Of a stretch of DNA of 39,265 nucleotides, positions 820 through 5,879 are shown piece after piece. Source of the stretch: an uncultured Flavobacteriales bacterium (GTDB taxonomy: Bacteria > Bacteroidota > Bacteroidia > Flavobacteriales > UBA7312); the NCBI GenBank assembly GCA_964009845.1, contig CAXGIQ010000002.1, positions 1 to 39,265 of the forward strand, read 5' to 3'. The translations under genes and the position numbers were made by a program. Under the pieces are notes generated by a model that had not been told where the DNA came from, ran no database searches, and saw nothing but the letters and a program-made list of their open reading frames with translations. The first letter of the stretch is position 1; the number at the start of each line of letters is the position of its first letter.

Positions 820-1239
820 ATGATTACAAAAGAACAAGTTTTAGCTGCACAAGATGCTTGGGGAAATGGCATTGTAGCAATAGGAAAGGGAGTGCAAGAT
901 GCTCGAGATTTTGTCAATAAAATGTATGTGGCTGGTGCACTTTTCAAGCCAACAATGGCTAAGGAGCAACCATTCAGAATTGAAGAAGATGATGCTGTAT
1001 CTTACTTTGTAGGAGGATGTTGTGCAGAAGATAGTGGCTTTGCTTTAAAACCATGGTCGGCAGTTAGATTTGTGAATGCGGACATTATTATTAATGGTAA
1101 TCAAGCTTTAGCTATGGGTCACTACTTCTTTACCAATAATGGAGAAGAAACAATGGTAGAATATTCATTTGGATACTCTTTAGTAGATGGTGAATTGAAA
1201 ATTAATCTACATCACTCTTCTTTACCTTGTCCGGAATAG
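820..1239 (+). CDS. Small conserved hypothetical protein, possibly NTF2/SnoaL-like fold
   Basis: 139-aa ORF with no signal peptide. The N-terminus (EQVLAAQDAWGNGIVAIGK) resembles small NTF2-like proteins. No function can be assigned by eye. Confidence 0.45.
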   Translation: MITKEQVLAAQDAWGNGIVAIGKGVQDARDFVNKMYVAGALFKPTMAKEQPFRIEEDDAVSYFVGGCCAEDSGFALKPWSAVRFVNADIIINGNQALAMGHYFFTNNGEETMVEYSFGYSLVDGELKINLHHSSLPCPE

Positions 1240-1243
1240 AAAA

Positions 1244-2512
1244 CTACTTTATAATAATTAAGAAGTAATTCTTTTTACCCTTTTGGACTAAAATATATTT
1301 GTTGGAAATCAAATCAGCGCTGCTGATTTGTTTTTCCTCATTTGCCTTCTCTTTATTGATGCTTACGGCATTGCTTTTAAGCATTCTTCGCGCCTCTCCT
1401 TTAGAACCGAAGACTTGTGTTTTCTCGGCTAAGAAATCAACGATTCCACAATCAAAATCATTAGCAGAAACTTCAAATTGAGGCACCCCATCAAAAACGG
1501 ATAAGAAAGTTTCCTCATCTAAAGATTTTAAATCATCCGCTGTTGATTTTCCAAACAAAATATTAGATGCTTTGGTAGCCATATCTAAATCTTCAGCAGA
1601 GTGCACACGCGTAGTCACCTCATCAGCCAATGCTTTTTGTAATACTCTTAAATGTGGCGCGTGTTCATGCTCTGTAATAATCGCATTGATTTTTTCCCGA
1701 GATTTCAAAGTAAATATCTTAATATAATTTTTGGCATCTTCATCAGAGGAATTTAACCAAAACTGATAAAATTTATAGGGTGAGGTTTTAGTCTTATCTA
1801 ACCAAACATTGCCTTCTTCTGTTTTACCAAACTTACCTCCATCAGCTTTTTTAATTAATGGAGTAGTTACAGCAAATGCCTGCCCCCCACCTTTTCTTCT
1901 AATTAGCTCCGTTCCTGTAACAATGTTTCCCCATTGGTCTGATCCACCTAATTGCACCATGCAGTTTTTGTTTTTCCAAAGCCAGTAAAAATCGTAGCCC
2001 TGCACCAATTGATAAGAAAATTCAGTAAAGCTCATCCCTGTTTCTAATCGGCTTTTTACAGAGTCTTTTGCCATCATATAATTCACAGACATATGTTTAC
2101 CTACGTCTCGAATAAAATCAAGAAATGAGAATTCTTTAAACCAATCGAAATTATTCACTACTTCTGCTGAGTTTTCTCCGCAATCAAAATCTAAAAATTT
2201 TTCCAGCTGAGCTTGCATGCACTTAAGATTGTGATTCAAAGTTTCTTCATCCAAAAGGTTACGTTCTTTTGATTTTCCAGAAGGATCACCCACCAGTCCA
2301 GTAGCACCCCCAACCAAAGCAACTGGTTTATGTCCCGCTTTTTGCAAGTGTACCAAAATCATGATTTGTACCAAAGAACCAATATGAAGCGAATCGGCAG
2401 TAGGATCAAAACCAATATAGGCTGAAGTCATCTCCTTTGCAAATTGCTCTTGAGTACCAGGCATGATATCATGAATCATCCCTCTCCATTTTAATTCTTC
2501 TACAAAATTCAT
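1244..2512 (-). CDS. tyrS: Tyrosine--tRNA ligase
   Basis: 422 aa. Class I signatures are present: HIGS (DSLHIGSL) and a KMSKS variant (KFGKTEEG). The C-terminus has an S4-like domain. Confidence 0.95.
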
Positions 2513-2529
2513 TTGCTGTGTGTTTATGG

Positions 2530-2537
2530 CAAATATA
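2530..2537 (-). promoter_or_regulatory. Bacteroidota -7 promoter box (TATATTTG on the minus strand) for tyrS
   Basis: The reverse complement of caaatata matches the TAnnTTTG consensus. It lies 17 nt upstream of the tyrS start codon. Confidence 0.5.
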
Positions 2538-2570
2538 AGTAATGTGATTCTTCAAGGCACATTTTTTCGA

Positions 2571-2578
2571 TACCTTTG
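2571..2578 (+). promoter_or_regulatory. Bacteroidota -7 promoter box (TACCTTTG) for the SDR epimerase gene
   Basis: Exact TAnnTTTG match, only 5 nt upstream of ATG 2584. This implies a leaderless or near-leaderless mRNA. Confidence 0.5.
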
Positions 2579-2583
2579 TTTTT

Positions 2584-3582
2584 ATGATTTTAGTTACCGG
2601 AGGAACAGGAATGGTTGGAGCGCATTTGTTGCTTCATTTACTGGAAAAAGGAAAGAAAGTTAAAGCTTTAAAGCGTAAAAGTAGTCACTTAAGTATTACT
2701 GAAAAAGTCTTTAACTATTACCAGCAATCCGATTTTTTAAAGCATATAGAATGGATTGATGGTGATGTGCAAGACATCCCTTCTTTAGAACTAGCCATGC
2801 AAGGCTGCGAAATAGTTTATCACGCAGCGGCTCTTGTTTCTTTTACATCAAAAGATGTAAAAAAAATGTTAGATATAAATGTGCAAGGAACTAGTAATAT
2901 AGTTAATGTAGCATTGAGTCAAAACATTAAAAAACTAGGATATGTCAGTTCTATTGCAGCTCTTAGTCGCTATGAAGATAATGATGAGGTAACAGAAGAA
3001 AATTATTGGAAACCAAATACAAAAAATTCTAATTACGCTATTAGTAAATACCTTTCTGAACAAGAGGTGTGGCGCGGAATCCAAGAGGGACTTCCTGCAT
3101 TGATTATCAATCCATCGGTTATTTTAGGACCTGGTGATTGGAATAGAGGAAGCGCCAAAATATTTCAAAAAGTTTGGGAAGGATTAAAATATTATACTTC
3201 GGGTGGAACAGGTTATGTAGATGTGGTAGATGTATCAAAATCACTTATTGATTTAATGGATAGTGAAGTGGCAAATGAGCGTTACATTGTTAATAGTGAA
3301 AATCTACTATTTCGAACAGTTTTTGATTGGATTGCTGAAGATTTAAATAAACCAAAAGCTAATATTAAAGTTACACCTTTACTTAAAGAAATCGTTTGGA
3401 GATTAGAAGGTATTCGATGTTTTTTTACTAGAAAAACACCTCTTATAACTAAAGAGACAGCAAATCAAGCCATGGCTAAAATGGTTTACTCTAATAAAAA
3501 ATTAAGCGATTTTGGTTTTAAACATACACCCATCAGAGAAAGTATAAAAAAATACAGTGAATGGTTTTTGAAAGAGGTTTAA
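2584..3582 (+). CDS. NAD-dependent epimerase/dehydratase (extended SDR family)
   Basis: 332 aa. It has an N-terminal Rossmann motif (VTGGTGMVGAHL) and a catalytic YxxxK (YAISKYLSE). Confidence 0.85.
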   Translation: MILVTGGTGMVGAHLLLHLLEKGKKVKALKRKSSHLSITEKVFNYYQQSDFLKHIEWIDGDVQDIPSLELAMQGCEIVYHAAALVSFTSKDVKKMLDINVQGTSNIVNVALSQNIKKLGYVSSIAALSRYEDNDEVTEENYWKPNTKNSNYAISKYLSEQEVWRGIQEGLPALIINPSVILGPGDWNRGSAKIFQKVWEGLKYYTSGGTGYVDVVDVSKSLIDLMDSEVANERYIVNSENLLFRTVFDWIAEDLNKPKANIKVTPLLKEIVWRLEGIRCFFTRKTPLITKETANQAMAKMVYSNKKLSDFGFKHTPIRESIKKYSEWFLKEV

Positions 3583-3917
3583 TTTCCTAAATCCGCCTCT
3601 TGCTTTTGAAGTTGCTCTACAACTTCAGTATAAATTTGTTCTAGCAGGTCTGTTTCTTTTATGCTGTAATAAGTCAAACTACTATCTAAAATTTCCTTAC
3701 TGATGTCATGCTTTTCATATAAAAGCTTAAACAAAGAGTCTTCTTGTAGTTGACTAACAGCTTGTGTTTTTCTCCAAACAGAAATCTTTCCTTTTAATAA
3801 ATGTACATCGCTTAAAATGGAGATCATTTTCTTTTCGGATAGCATCTTTTCTGGCAATTCTTTTTGAGAAGTGTTACAAGCTAAAAGTATAAAACAAATT
3901 ATCACTATAAATCTCAT
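3579..3917 (-). CDS. DUF4296-like small lipoprotein
   Basis: 112 aa. The signal peptide has a lipobox (ICFILLAC). The core EKKMISILSDVHLLKG is typical of the DUF4296 family recalled from Flavobacteriia. Its stop overlaps the convergent epimerase stop by 4 nt. Confidence 0.6.
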   Translation of the reverse strand: MRFIVIICFILLACNTSQKELPEKMLSEKKMISILSDVHLLKGKISVWRKTQAVSQLQEDSLFKLLYEKHDISKEILDSSLTYYSIKETDLLEQIYTEVVEQLQKQEADLGN

Positions 3918-3955: not shown

Positions 3956-3963
3956 TATATTTG
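3956..3963 (+). promoter_or_regulatory. Bacteroidota -7 promoter box (TATATTTG) for the Cys-rich repeat lipoprotein gene
   Basis: Exact TAnnTTTG match, 28 nt upstream of ATG 3992. Confidence 0.5.
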
Positions 3964-3991
3964 CAAAAGAACTTGAATCAAATAAAGTAAA

Positions 3992-4477
3992 ATGAAAAAG
4001 ATATTATTTGCGCTAGCTATCGCTACCATGGGCTTAGTTGCTTGTGTTGGAGGAACTCAAGATTCTTCTTCTGAATGTACAACTGAAGCTAAAAAAGAAT
4101 GCTGCTCATCTAAAGAAGCTGAAAAAGAATGTTCTTCTGACGAAGCTAAAAAAGAATGCTGCTCATCTAAAGAAGCTAAAAAAGAATGTTCTTCTGACGA
4201 AGCTAAAAAAGAATGCTGCTCATCTAAAGAAGCTAAAAAAGAATGCTGTTCATCTAAAGAAACTAAAAAAGAATGTTCTTCTGACGAAGCTAAAAAAGAA
4301 TGCTGTTCATCTAAAGAAACTAAAAAAGAATGTTCTTCTGACGAAGCTAAAAAAGAATGCTGTTCATCTAAAGAAACTAAAAAAGAATGCTGTTCTTCAA
4401 AAAGCGATAGCTCTCACTCGCATGACCATGGTGATGATGAAGACCATGATCATAATCAAAATGAAGAAGAAAACTAA
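3992..4477 (+). CDS. Cys-rich tandem-repeat lipoprotein with a His/Asp/Glu-rich tail (orphan; putative metal- or thiol-binding)
   Basis: The lipoprotein signal is MKKILFALAIATMGLVAC. It is followed by 11 units of E[AT]KKECCSSK or E[AT][KE]KECSSD, then SHSHDHGDDEDHDHNQNEEEN. The gene has its own promoter box and its own terminator. Confidence 0.7.
   Translation: MKKILFALAIATMGLVACVGGTQDSSSECTTEAKKECCSSKEAEKECSSDEAKKECCSSKEAKKECSSDEAKKECCSSKEAKKECCSSKETKKECSSDEAKKECCSSKETKKECSSDEAKKECCSSKETKKECCSSKSDSSHSHDHGDDEDHDHNQNEEEN
4085..4402 (+). repeat. In-frame tandem repeat of 11 units (27 or 30 nt) with a 57-nt higher-order period
   Basis: 4229-4285 is identical to 4286-4342. 4085-4141 differs from 4142-4198 at a single base (4121 g versus 4178 a). 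Confidence 0.95.
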
Positions 4478-4504
4478 TTATTAAAAGTTTTTAAAAAATC
4501 AAAA

Positions 4505-4531
4505 GACATCCATTAGGGATGTCTTTTTTTT
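4505..4531. terminator. Bidirectional intrinsic terminator shared by the Cys-rich gene (+) and pyrC (-)
   Basis: Hairpin gacatcc-attag-ggatgtc, followed by an 8-nt T run on the plus strand. An A-rich tract precedes it, which reads as a T run on the minus strand. Confidence 0.7.
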
Positions 4532-5879
4532 ATCTATTAAATAAGAGACGTTGTCCTTTTTGGCTTTCATCAAATACACCGTTATAATAGGCTAAATGAC
4601 CGTTTACCCAAGTATGTGTTACTGATGATTGGAATATAGTGCCTTCAAAAGGTGACCAACCACATTTATACAGCACATTTTCTTTACTAACCTCCCAAGG
4701 ATTTTTTAAATCGACTAAAACTAAATCAGCGGCATATCCTTCACGAATAAAGCCTCTATTCTCTATTTGAAAGCAGATAGCTGGCGCATGGCTCATTTTT
4801 TCTACTATTTTTTCTAAAGTGATATTTCCTTGATGATAAAATTCTAACATAGCTGGAAGCGCATGCTGTACTAACGGACCTCCGGAAGGTGCATTGAAGT
4901 AAGTATTGTCTTTTTCTTCTAAGGTATGTGGAGCGTGATCTGTTGCTATCACATCAATTCTATCGTCTAGTAATGCTTGAAAGACAGCAGCTCTATCAGT
5001 TTCTGATTTTACTGCAGGATTCCACTTAATATGTGTTCCTTTTTCAGCATACTTACTTTCTTCAAACCATAGGTGATGAATACAGACTTCTGCTGTAATA
5101 CGCTTTTCAGCTAATGGGATGCTGTTATCGAACAGTTCCATTTCTTTAGCTGTAGAGAGATGAAAAACATGCAGTCGTGTATTGTGTTTTTTAGCTAACT
5201 CTACAGCCATGCTTGAAGATTTATAACATGCTTCTACGCTTCTTATTTTAGGGTGGTATTCTATTGGAATATCCTCACCAAATTGTGCTTTATACAAATC
5301 TGTATTTGTTTGTACCATTGTTTCATCCTCGCAATGCACCGCTATCAACATTGGTGATTTAGCAAAAATTTCTTCCAATACTGTACGGTTATCTACTAAC
5401 ATATTACCAGTAGAAGACCCCATAAAAATCTTTACAGCTCCAACTCTTTTTGGGTCTGTTTTTAACACCTCTTCTAGATTGTCGTTAGAAGCACCCATGA
5501 AGAATGTATAATTAGCCAAAGACACTTGTGCAGCTCTTTGAAATTTCTCTTCCAATAATTCTTGTGTTAATGATTGTGGCTTCGTATTGGGCATCTCCAT
5601 AAAAGAAGTAATCCCTCCTGCAACTGCTGCCTTAGCTTCTGTATAAATTTCTGCTTTATGTGTTAACCCCGGCTCTCTAAAATGTACTTGATCATCTATT
5701 ACACCAGGGATAAGGTACTTACCACTTGCATCTACTACTTGGTCTGCAACACATTCTATATTTTCTGAAATTTCTTGAATTATCCCATTTTGAAGGAACA
5801 CATCTGATTGAAAAATCTTTCCTTCATTAACAATGGTTGCATTTTTAATGAGTGTTTTTACCATTTGCTTTGCGTTCAA
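4530..5879 (-). CDS. pyrC: Dihydroorotase (amidohydrolase superfamily, Bacteroidota type)
   Basis: 449 aa. Metal-site region is VIDDQVHFREPGLTHKAEI; other matches include AVHCED and ATDHAPH. An alternative start at 5861 (MVKTLIKNATIVNEG) would reduce the overlap with the upstream gene. Confidence 0.85.
   Translation of the reverse strand: MNAKQMVKTLIKNATIVNEGKIFQSDVFLQNGIIQEISENIECVADQVVDASGKYLIPGVIDDQVHFREPGLTHKAEIYTEAKAAVAGGITSFMEMPNTKPQSLTQELLEEKFQRAAQVSLANYTFFMGASNDNLEEVLKTDPKRVGAVKIFMGSSTGNMLVDNRTVLEEIFAKSPMLIAVHCEDETMVQTNTDLYKAQFGEDIPIEYHPKIRSVEACYKSSSMAVELAKKHNTRLHVFHLSTAKEMELFDNSIPLAEKRITAEVCIHHLWFEESKYAEKGTHIKWNPAVKSETDRAAVFQALLDDRIDVIATDHAPHTLEEKDNTYFNAPSGGPLVQHALPAMLEFYHQGNITLEKIVEKMSHAPAICFQIENRGFIREGYAADLVLVDLKNPWEVSKENVLYKCGWSPFEGTIFQSSVTHTWVNGHLAYYNGVFDESQKGQRLLFNR

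What the first reader, a model, noticed from the sequence alone, without database searches (positions are those of the whole stretch)
3992..4477. Orphan lipoprotein made almost entirely of Cys-rich 9/10-residue repeats plus a His/Asp tail: possible periplasmic or surface metallothionein-like protein, or a thiol buffer
The signal peptide is a textbook lipoprotein signal with a lipobox (MGLVAC). It is followed by 11 tandem units, seven of E[AT]KKECCSSK and four of E[AT][KE]KECSSD. That gives 18 Cys in 106 residues with no aromatic or bulky hydrophobic residues. The protein ends in SDSSHSHDHGDDEDHDHNQNEEEN, which contains 5 His among Asp and Glu. Vicinal Cys pairs and a His/Asp tail are typical soft- and borderline-metal ligands (Cu, Zn, Cd, Ni). 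A lipid-anchored, exported, repeat-built protein of this kind is not a family I recognise. It has no CxxCH or ferredoxin-like spacing, and no partner genes such as a maturase or transporter lie nearby.
Basis: partly seen in the sequence, partly recalled or inferred. Interest (0 to 1): 0.65.

Follow-up and report, generated by a model that had tools for sequence, protein, structure and literature searches.

The report
Cysteine-repeat lipoprotein, likely periplasmic metal binder
A real small gene of an uncultured marine flavobacterium encodes a lipid-anchored, floppy protein in which a short cysteine motif has been copied 11 times ahead of a histidine-rich tail; it is an extreme version of an unnamed lipoprotein family found across the Flavobacteriales and most likely holds trace metals in the cell envelope, although no metal binding has been measured.

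Summary
ORF 3992-4477(+) encodes 161 aa: a lipobox signal peptide, 11 tandem units (7 E[AT]KKECCSSK, 4 E[AT][KE]KECSSD; 18 Cys in 106 residues) and a tail with 5 His. It has a conserved Bacteroidota -7 promoter box and its own terminator. The repeat copy number matches read depth, and metatranscriptome contigs lie on the array.

It is not an orphan. The same slot (DUF4296 | gene | dihydroorotase-like) holds a small lipoprotein with the same signal peptide in two Flavobacteriales families. The mature part changes fast and is usually acidic and Cys-free. In scattered lineages it carries short conserved modules: C-x3-C-x-K-E-C-C, G-C-x5-6-C-L-x-D-H-S-C-C, and HDH...GEDHGHDH tails. In the window's clade the KKECC unit was amplified: relatives have 1-6 units, and two alleles differ by exactly one.

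All 21 genomes of the family lack detectable DsbA, DsbB and VKOR, while 20 have DsbD, so exported thiols may stay reduced. There is no surface-export signal, so the protein probably faces the periplasm.

Best reading: a periplasmic, lipid-anchored, metallothionein-like metal buffer whose capacity depends on repeat number (about 0.5). Metal binding is inferred, not shown. It is an unannotated family and a new variant of a known kind.

The parts
3956..3963 (+). Bacteroidota -7 promoter box TATATTTG (TAnnTTTG), 28 nt before the ATG
   Evidence: Read from the sequence. A TAnnTT[TA]G box sits at the same place in all 12 orthologous upstream regions aligned and in nearly all of the 20 further family members listed.
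3992..4477 (+). Complete CDS of the 161-aa Cys-repeat lipoprotein, stop codon included
   Evidence: Homologues keep this frame, the signal peptide and the tail.
3992..4045 (+). Signal peptide with lipobox (MKKILFALAIATMGLVAC; Cys18 would be the lipidated residue)
   Evidence: Sequence. The signal peptide MK[KN][IL]x[FY]VxAIAxMGLVAC is conserved in positional orthologues of four genera and across the order.
4046..4084 (+). Conserved non-repeat N-terminus of the mature protein (VGGTQDSSSECTT). It has no acidic pair at +3 to +5, so no lipoprotein export signal.
   Evidence: V19, G20, G21, Q23, S25-S27 and E28 are invariant in alignment A1. The export-signal definition comes from PMC5080379.
4085..4402 (+). 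Array of 11 tandem units (7 x 30 nt EAKKECCSSK type, 4 x 27 nt EAKKECSSD type; 18 Cys)
   Evidence: Copy number is supported by depth. Metatranscriptome contigs of 87 nt with 0-1 mismatch lie here.
4403..4474 (+). His/Asp/Glu tail SDSSHSHDHGDDEDHDHNQNEEEN (5 His; begins with the family-wide S-HDH motif)
   Evidence: HDH-type tails are present in divergent relatives.
4501..4527 (.). Bidirectional intrinsic terminator hairpin (11 pairs) with T runs on both strands, shared with the convergent dihydroorotase-like gene
   Evidence: A comparable GC-rich hairpin plus T run follows the stop codon in most of the 20 family members listed.
3579..3917 (-). Divergent neighbour and synteny marker: DUF4296 lipoprotein
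   Evidence: Pfam PF14129, E = 1.5e-16. It is conserved next to the gene in relatives.
4530..5879 (-). Convergent neighbour and synteny marker: dihydroorotase-like amidohydrolase
   Evidence: Pfam PF01979. It is 73-92% identical in 23 loci that hold the small lipoprotein.

Best explanation
The gene encodes a small, intrinsically disordered lipoprotein that is probably anchored in the outer membrane and faces the periplasm. It is a lineage-specific derivative of a small acidic lipoprotein found throughout the Flavobacteriales.

In this clade one short Cys motif (…K-K-E-C-C-S-S…, a remnant of the family module C-x3-C-x-K-E-C-C) was amplified by in-frame tandem duplication to 11 units. The family's HDH-type His/acid tail was kept.

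The proposed mechanism has three parts. Vicinal and single thiolates, flanked by Lys as in metallothioneins, together with the His/Asp/Glu tail, bind soft and borderline metal ions (Cu(I), Zn(II), Cd(II), possibly Ni or Co) in the periplasm, buffering or storing them. Capacity scales with unit number, which slippage or recombination changes in steps of one unit. The thiols can stay reduced because the lineage has DsbD but no detectable DsbA/DsbB/VKOR oxidation pathway.

Shown here: the gene, its frame, promoter box and terminator; the lipobox; the repeat structure and its variation; positional orthology; module conservation; the Dsb gene content. Inferred: localisation, the reduced state of the thiols, metal binding, and which metal.
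For: The gene is real.
- The signal peptide, the N-terminal VGGTQDSSSEC segment and the tail are conserved in 13 relatives from marine metagenomes and single-cell genomes, all in this frame.
- The -7 box and the terminator are conserved.
- Metatranscriptome contigs (87 nt, 0-1 mismatch, depth 2-11) lie on the array in three runs, while the flanking genes have none.

Positional orthology.
- The slot DUF4296(-) | gene(+) | DHOase-like(-) is the same in all four genera of the family.
- It is also the same in a second family, f3.

Cys and His are what is conserved.
- The neighbouring DHOase is 88-92% identical among close relatives, while the mature lipoprotein is 42-80% identical or unalignable.
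- Despite this, the orthologue P0011 keeps 10 Cys and a GHDHADGEDHGHDHADGEDHGHEH tail.
- G013 has 2 x KCCGGTKEDCASK plus HSHDHDHDHSDDEEHSHNH.
- The 16-residue module GCQVEGGTCL[EA]DHSCC is 15/16 identical between families f1 and f3.
- C-x3-C-x-K-[EA]-C-C recurs in at least 8 otherwise dissimilar proteins.

Composition fits a metallothionein.
- There are no aromatic residues, 17% Cys in the array, and Lys next to Cys.
- AlphaFold2 gives mean pLDDT 48 with only short helices, which fits a protein that folds only on a ligand.

Disulfide pairing is not required.
- Mature Cys counts are 19, 10, 8, 9, 6 and 7 among relatives, of mixed parity.
- Single-unit alleles differ by two Cys (L041 versus L043).

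Redox context.
- PF01323, PF13462, PF02600 and PF07884 each match 0 of 21 genomes of the family, while the control genomes match.
- PF02683 matches 20 of 21 genomes, in full-length DsbD-like ORFs. The own copy has 657 aa and a WACVNC motif.
Against: No metal binding, redox state, localisation or protein product has been measured.

No metal transporter, metalloregulator or chaperone gene is linked in any context examined. No operator specific to the Cys/His variants was found upstream.

CxC and CxxC motifs, typical of metallothioneins, are absent; only CC and isolated C occur.

Most family members lack Cys and His altogether, so the core function of the scaffold is something else. The modules could be dispensable decoration.

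The RNA evidence comes from short assembled contigs in repetitive sequence and could include DNA carry-over.

The absence of Dsb genes rests on profile searches of mostly draft genomes. An aerobic periplasm can still oxidise thiols non-enzymatically.
Confidence: 0.5

Rival explanations
1. Periplasmic thiol or redox buffer. The roughly 19 thiols, kept reduced through DsbD, act as a sacrificial or recyclable sink for H2O2, HOCl, photo-oxidants or electrophiles in sunlit surface water. The His tail is incidental.
For: DsbD is present and Dsb oxidases are undetected. One distant relative lies divergent from an Fe/Mn superoxide dismutase gene (P0012/L037 and G021/L054). The protein is disordered and Cys-rich.
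Against: This does not explain the co-retained HDH/His-acid tails, or the His embedded in the C-L-x-D-H-S-C-C module. No periplasmic reductase or peroxidase is linked. The SOD neighbourhood occurs in only one lineage.
Confidence: 0.15
2. Structural envelope protein. Like the chlamydial small Cys-rich lipoprotein OmcA, it forms intermolecular disulfide cross-links that stiffen the outer membrane or tether it.
For: It is a small lipoprotein with many Cys. Its strong promoter and terminator suggest an abundant monocistronic product.
Against: There is no Pfam match to Chlam_OMP3 or to anything else. No Dsb oxidase was detected in 21 genomes. Cys number and parity vary freely and most orthologues have no Cys. 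The His tails are left unexplained.
Confidence: 0.1
3. No specific function for the repeats. The conserved function of the family lies in the lipid anchor and N-terminus, or simply in being a disordered polyanionic tether. The mature low-complexity region drifts, and the Cys-unit array is a recent, nearly neutral slippage expansion.
For: Turnover of the mature region is extreme next to a 88-92% identical neighbour. The units are nearly identical at the DNA level, so they are recent. Copy number ranges from 1 to 11. Most orthologues are plain acidic T/E/V-rich peptides.
Against: Short Cys/His modules are conserved across families while everything around them changes; one is 15/16 identical between f1 and f3. 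Within units, E-C and S-S are invariant and K at position -1 occurs in 57 of 63 units. All length changes keep the frame.
Confidence: 0.2
4. Not this protein. Either the alternative +2 frame (LKKLKKNAAHLKK…, 4038-4484) is the product, or the ORF is a precursor of a ribosomally made, modified peptide with repeated cores.
For: The +2 frame is open for 148 aa. Cys/Ser-rich repeated cores look superficially like multi-core lanthipeptide precursors.
Against: The +2 frame has no conserved start or signal. The lipobox frame is conserved in four genera and beyond. No maturase, protease or exporter lies within ±5 kb here or in relatives.
Confidence: 0.03

Closest known systems
Metallothioneins (operational class; bacterial examples SmtA/BmtA, Pfam PF02069, and MymT of Mycobacterium)
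   Same: Small size, high Cys content, no aromatic residues, Lys and Ser flanking the Cys, vicinal CC pairs, predicted disorder without a ligand, and His contributing as in SmtA (from my own knowledge of the class).
   Different: There is no sequence match. The protein is exported and lipid-anchored rather than cytosolic. It is built from tandem 9/10-residue units with only CC or C, with no CxC or CxxC motif. It has a separate His/acid tail. Metal-thiolate clusters have not been shown.
Periplasmic metal 'sponges' and stores: PcoE/SilE, CusF, CopK and the Tat-exported copper storage protein Csp1
   Same: The proposed role is the same: binding excess or reserve metal in the periplasm. Csp1 uses many Cys thiolates outside the cytoplasm (from my own knowledge).
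   Different: PcoE and SilE use Met and His, not Cys. Csp1 is a folded four-helix bundle. Here no fold is predicted (pLDDT 48) and there is no family match.
His-rich metal-binding tails and proteins (Hpn, and the tails of SlyD, HypB and UreE; the ZnuA His-rich loop)
   Same: The tail SHSHDHGDDEDHDHN and its relatives HDHADGEDHGHDH look like Ni/Zn-binding His/acid stretches (from my own knowledge).
   Different: Those tails are appended to folded cytosolic or periplasmic proteins of known function. Here the tail ends a disordered lipoprotein.
PG1828 family lipoprotein of Porphyromonas gingivalis (NCBIfam NF050142)
   Same: A small Bacteroidota lipoprotein of about 60 residues. The acidic positional orthologues match the whole 59-position profile weakly (25.4 bits, E = 1.8e-5).
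   Different: All scores are below the curated cut-off of 50 bits. The window protein reaches 15.7 bits, and only over its signal peptide. PG1828 is known as a TLR2-stimulating lipoprotein and no cellular function has been established for it.
Chlamydial OmcA (small Cys-rich outer-membrane-complex lipoprotein, Pfam PF03503)
   Same: A small lipoprotein with more than 10 Cys.
   Different: There is no sequence match. OmcA works through disulfide cross-links. Here no Dsb oxidases are detectable and Cys parity is unconstrained.
Modular Cys/His-rich lipoprotein noted earlier in this scan (e1-2427100)
   Same: It is described as the same kind of unannotated, very acidic, lipid-anchored family with interchangeable Cys and His modules in marine Flavobacteriales.
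   Different: That example carried a Cys cluster plus G-D-D-H-D-H-A repeats. The window's protein instead amplifies the KKECC unit 11 times.

Membership tests
Bacterial lipoprotein (signal peptidase II substrate) | N-terminal basic residues, a hydrophobic core, and a lipobox [LVI][ASTVI][GAS]C | tested here: met
   MKK-ILFALAIATMG-LVAC. It is conserved in orthologues.
Surface-exposed Bacteroidota lipoprotein | Lipoprotein export signal C-X-K-(D/E)2-X or Q-A-(D/E)2 at positions +2 to +6 | tested here: not met
   The mature N-terminus is C-V-G-G-T-Q-D. The first acidic residue is at +7 and there is no acidic pair. The definition comes from PMC5080379.
Metallothionein (operational definition) | Low mass, high Cys content, no aromatic residues | tested here: met
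   The mature protein has 143 aa, 19 Cys beyond the lipidated one (17% in the array) and no F, W or Y. Relatives have 56-116 aa.
Metallothionein (operational definition) | Cys arranged in CxC, CxxC or CC motifs that form metal-thiolate clusters | tested here: inconclusive
   Only CC (7 times) and isolated C occur, with no CxC or CxxC. Cluster formation cannot be tested with these tools.
SmtA/BmtA bacterial metallothionein (PF02069) | A match to the family profile | tested here: not met
   The Pfam scan at E <= 1 returned no families.
PG1828 family lipoprotein (NF050142) | Score of at least 50 bits against the NCBIfam model | tested here: not met
   15.7 bits, residues 1-31 only. The best acidic orthologue scores 25.4 bits.
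Chlamydial OmcA / copper storage protein Csp | A profile match; for Csp, a Cys-lined four-helix bundle | tested here: not met
   No Pfam hit. The AlphaFold2 model is unstructured, with pLDDT 48. There is no meaningful PDB sequence hit; the best is Cullin-5 at E = 0.43.
Flavobacteriales small slot lipoprotein (unnamed; defined here) | Signal peptide MK[KN]Lx[FY]… with a lipobox. Monocistronic, with a TAnnTTTG box about 30 nt upstream and a terminator. Located between the DUF4296 and dihydroorotase-like genes. | tested here: met
RiPP precursor with repeated cores | A linked maturase, protease or exporter, and a leader peptide rather than a Sec/SPII signal | tested here: not met
   The neighbours are housekeeping genes here and in relatives. 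The N-terminus is a lipoprotein signal.

The most novel reading that the evidence does not exclude
Flavobacteriales may carry a previously unrecognised class of lipid-anchored periplasmic metallothioneins. In this reading, a universal small disordered lipoprotein scaffold gains, loses and amplifies short Cys modules (C-x3-C-x-K-E-C-C, C-L-x-D-H-S-C-C) and His modules (HDH…GEDHGHDH). Metal capacity would then be tuned within populations by repeat number (1 to 11 units). This would be possible because these streamlined marine lineages have dispensed with the DsbA/DsbB oxidation pathway while keeping DsbD. It would be the first exported, membrane-tethered bacterial metallothionein family and a new element of trace-metal handling by abundant ocean heterotrophs.
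Probability: 0.35. Interest if true: 0.75.

Novelty: new variant of a known kind. Interest (0 to 1): 0.55.

Why it matters
Known bacterial metallothioneins are few and cytosolic, and known periplasmic metal buffers are folded or Met/His-based. A lipid-anchored, repeat-built thiolate/His binder would add a new envelope-level mechanism of trace-metal buffering or storage. The carriers are streamlined marine Flavobacteriales that are abundant in the surface ocean, where Cu can be toxic and Zn, Co and Cd are scarce.

The locus also shows how a functional low-complexity protein can evolve. Short ligand modules are retained, lost or tandemly amplified on a conserved lipoprotein chassis, and copy number varies between near-identical alleles.

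The apparent lack of DsbA, DsbB and VKOR, with DsbD retained, in a whole family of aerobic bacteria deserves attention in its own right.

Tried and rejected
Searches that gave no family match:
- Pfam and NCBIfam scans of the protein and six relatives found no family above cut-off.
- A PDB sequence search gave only spurious Cullin-5 hits at E about 0.4.
- AlphaFold2 with the 7-sequence alignment gave pLDDT 48, so no fold search was attempted.

Literature and names:
- 'KKECC' occurs in no paper.
- Searches for bacterial metallothionein plus lipoprotein plus periplasm, and for related terms, returned only generic reviews.
- A search for Dsb in Bacteroidetes returned nothing.
- The cluster look-up gave no names from any source.

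Context as a clue to function:
- P0007, an SPI-signal (EAKKECTG)n protein, lies beside a two-component system, SecA and a CNNM/CBS protein, which is uninformative.
- In family f16 the context is GlyRS and an S41 peptidase. In f2 it is SOD and an S41 peptidase.
- No metal genes were found anywhere.

Operator search:
- The genus-level GAATTCGAATT-like element and the wider AATTATTAA element downstream of the -7 box occur in Cys-free members as well. They are therefore not evidence for a metalloregulator.

Alternative frame:
- The +2 frame was rejected because only the lipobox frame is conserved.

Assembly artefact:
- Rejected on the basis of depth ratios.

Selenocysteine in the second Cys-rich gene of this genome (in-frame TGA):
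- No tRNA-Sec was found, but only 18 tRNAs were recovered from this incomplete genome. It is treated as a probable pseudogene or sequencing error.

Full report
**1. What is in the sequence**

- The signal peptide MKKILFALAIATMGLVAC carries the lipobox L-V-A-C.
- A short non-repeat segment follows: VGGTQDSSSECTT.
- Then come 11 head-to-tail units: seven of E[AT]KKECCSSK (30 nt) and four of E[AT][KE]KECSSD (27 nt). They cover nt 4085-4402 and hold 18 Cys in 106 residues.
- The tail is SDSSHSHDHGDDEDHDHNQNEEEN, with 5 His.
- The mature protein is made of S, E, K, C, D, A, T, H, G, N, Q and a single V.

Tandem Repeats Finder reports the array with scores of 394-573.

The gene looks like an autonomous unit. 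A Bacteroidota -7 box, TATATTTG, lies at 3956-3963, 28 nt before the ATG. An 11-pair hairpin with T runs on both sides (4501-4527) separates the gene from the convergent dihydroorotase-like gene.

The genome is a 1.32-Mb, 135-contig, 36% G+C draft, about 82% complete. The closest species representative is a single-cell genome labelled "uncultured Bacteroidetes bacterium AG-426-M20". Every public run that holds the sequence is a marine metagenome.

**2. Is the 11-unit array real?**

Short-read assemblies break inside the array. In run X1, however, the depth of each repeat unitig divided by the flank depth of 12 gives 2.39, 1.04, 3.77, 1.31, 2.0 and 3.02. The multiplicities of the same 31-mers in the assembled window are 2.35, 1, 3.77, 1, 2 and 3. 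The copy number is therefore supported by read depth. X1 may be the data set from which the genome was assembled, so this excludes an assembler error but not an amplification artefact.

**3. Is it expressed, and in this frame?**

Three metatranscriptome runs contain 87-nt contigs with 0-1 mismatch inside the array, at depth 2-11. In those runs nothing lies on the flanking DUF4296 and DHOase genes. This is modest evidence, because the contigs are assembled, the sequence is repetitive and the strand is unknown.

The frame is settled by comparison. Thirteen relatives from ENA, JGI and TARA metagenomes and one single-cell genome keep the signal peptide, the CVGGTQDSSSEC segment and the His tail in this frame. 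The open +2 frame has no conserved start or signal.

**4. Repeat-number variation**

Relatives carry 1-6 units, against 11 in the window. L041 (116 aa) and L043 (106 aa) are identical except for one DKANKECCSS unit. All changes are in frame.

Across 63 units, E-C and S-S are invariant. K at position -1 occurs in 57 of 63 units. The second Cys is present in 40 units and absent in 23.

**5. It is not an orphan**

The arrangement DUF4296(-) | gene(+) | dihydroorotase-like(-) | GT2(-) | acetyl-CoA synthetase(-) recurs in all close relatives.

Searching the 21 species genomes of the same taxonomic family with the DUF4296 neighbour showed that the slot always holds a small lipoprotein with nearly the same signal peptide, MKNLxYVxAIAxMGLVAC. 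In most genera the mature part is a 40-50-residue acidic T/E/V/A-rich peptide without Cys.

Within the window's genus:
- G011 has 3 Cys units and a His tail.
- G013 has two tandem paralogues. One is acidic. The other has 2 x KCCGGTKEDCASK plus HSHDHDHDHSDDEEHSHNH.

An exhaustive profile search of 1.84 billion representatives found only nine proteins. Among them is P0011, which sits in the same 12-kb synteny. Its mature part is non-repetitive, with 10 Cys and a GHDHADGEDHGHDHADGEDHGHEH tail.

An order-wide search (401 genomes) matched 72 genomes in 29 of 105 genera. In families f1 and f3 the gene lies in the same slot. In f16 it lies between GlyRS and an S41 peptidase. In f2 it lies between an Fe/Mn SOD and an S41 peptidase.

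Nearly all of the 20 members examined have a TAnnTT[TA]G box about 30 nt upstream, and most have a clear terminator hairpin.

**6. What is conserved**

The DHOase neighbour is 88-92% identical among the close relatives. The mature lipoprotein is 42-80% identical, and those figures are inflated by low complexity.

Against this turnover, three short modules recur:
- (a) C-x3-C-x-K-[EA]-C-C. Examples are GCAADCAKECC, ACAAECAKECC, CAADCKKECC, SCAADCVKECC, ACSEDCAKECC and ECADDCQKACC.
- (b) G-C-x5-6-C-[LV]-x-D-H-S-C-C. This is 15/16 identical between P0011 (f1-type synteny) and G273 (f3).
- (c) Tails that begin with HDH and continue as …GEDHGHDH….

The modules are patchily distributed among genera:
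- g1: Cys and His.
- g2: one genome with a Cys module.
- g3: one genome with 12 Cys and 4 His, one with His only, one with neither.
- g4: none.
- f3: four of nine listed.

The window's unit …KKECCSS… is the last part of module (a), amplified.

**7. Context bearing on mechanism**

- No lipoprotein export signal (C-X-K-(D/E)2; PMC5080379) follows Cys+1, so the protein probably stays on the periplasmic side.
- Profile searches for DsbA (PF01323), DsbA-like Thioredoxin_4 (PF13462), DsbB (PF02600) and VKOR (PF07884) each matched 0 of the 21 genomes of the family, 13 of which are at least 90% complete. The control genomes matched.
- DsbD_TM (PF02683) matched 20 of 21 genomes, in ORFs of about 650-690 aa. 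The own copy has 657 aa, a signal peptide, the membrane-domain Cys residues and a C-terminal WACVNC motif. The envelope therefore has a reducing pathway and no recognisable oxidising one, which makes persistent free thiols plausible.
- Mature Cys counts have mixed parity (19, 10, 8, 9, 6, 7), which argues against obligatory intramolecular pairing.
- AlphaFold2 predicts no fold (pLDDT 48).

**8. Interpretation**

The best-supported reading (about 0.5) is a lipid-anchored, periplasm-facing, metallothionein-like metal buffer or store. Lys-flanked thiolates and a His/acid tail would bind Cu(I), Zn(II), Cd(II) or similar ions, with capacity set by unit number. The composition (Cys, Lys and Ser, no aromatic residues, CC pairs) matches the operational definition of metallothioneins, as I know it from the literature on that class.

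The protein is not a member of any named family. It has no PF02069, no OmcA and no Csp match, and its PG1828-family score is 15.7 bits against a cut-off of 50.

The rivals are:
- a thiol or redox buffer (0.15);
- an OmcA-like disulfide-cross-linked structural role (0.1);
- near-neutral low-complexity expansion on a scaffold whose function lies elsewhere (0.2);
- a wrong frame or a RiPP precursor (0.03).

Nothing in the gene neighbourhood or upstream region points to a particular metal or regulator.

**9. Novelty**

No source names any member and no paper was found. It agrees with what I derived here from the data, but it is not independent evidence.

I rate this as a new variant of a known kind: a metallothionein-like metal binder, but exported, lipid-anchored and repeat-amplified. 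Interest is moderate (0.55) until metal binding is measured.

Noticed in passing
G000 contig C22:13835-14143 (outside the window); relatives L007-L010, L014, L015, L021, L032-L035: A second small exported Cys/Lys/Ser-rich protein family. It has an SPI-type signal and about 120-125 aa, and it ends in KKCSKGDACCTKTGKKxAxCDKKxQGCC. It occupies a conserved slot FtsH-CdsA-Psd-[gene]-M16 peptidase-O-methyltransferase in genera g1, g2 and g4. The copy in this genome has an in-frame TGA after …SNSAKK. No tRNA-Sec was found among the 18 tRNAs recovered, so it is probably a pseudogene or a sequencing error.
   Followed up: partly
Whole taxonomic family (21 genomes); own DsbD at G000 C43, about 919-2892 (-): No DsbA, DsbA-like Thioredoxin_4, DsbB or VKOR profile match in any of the 21 genomes of this aerobic marine family. 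Full-length DsbD is present in 20 of 21. This suggests an envelope without the canonical disulfide-forming pathway.
   Followed up: partly
window 3964-3991 and the orthologous 5' UTRs (L023, L024, L036, L038, L055-L076): Just downstream of the -7 box, genus g1 shows a GAATTCGAATT-like element. Many members across the order show AATTATTAA(T/C)CAA. Both occur in Cys-free members too, so they are not metal-specific. They may be a 5'-UTR or translation element of this highly conserved monocistronic unit.
   Followed up: partly
G013:C7:42909-43416 (locus L024/L050): Tandem duplication of the slot lipoprotein: an acidic Cys-free copy (68 aa) is followed directly by a Cys/His copy (100 aa). This looks like a snapshot of how the Cys/His variant can arise or coexist with the ancestral form.
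   Followed up: partly
L037 (a TARA scaffold) and L054 (G021:C38): In a different Flavobacteriales family, the Cys/His small lipoprotein lies divergent from an Fe/Mn superoxide dismutase gene and convergent with an S41 peptidase gene.
   Followed up: no
L005 (Logan SRR25012948 contig), 3520-3795: An unrelated-looking SPI-signal protein with (EAKKECTG)n repeats ending in CCKKK lies next to a two-component system, SecA and a CNNM/CBS protein. It has a similar EAKKEC unit in a non-lipoprotein context.
   Followed up: partly
window 4038-4484 (+2 frame): The repeat array is also open in the +2 frame, giving an amphipathic LKKLKKNAAHLKK… repeat of 148 aa. It has no conserved start or signal and was judged a by-product of the A-rich codons.
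   Followed up: yes
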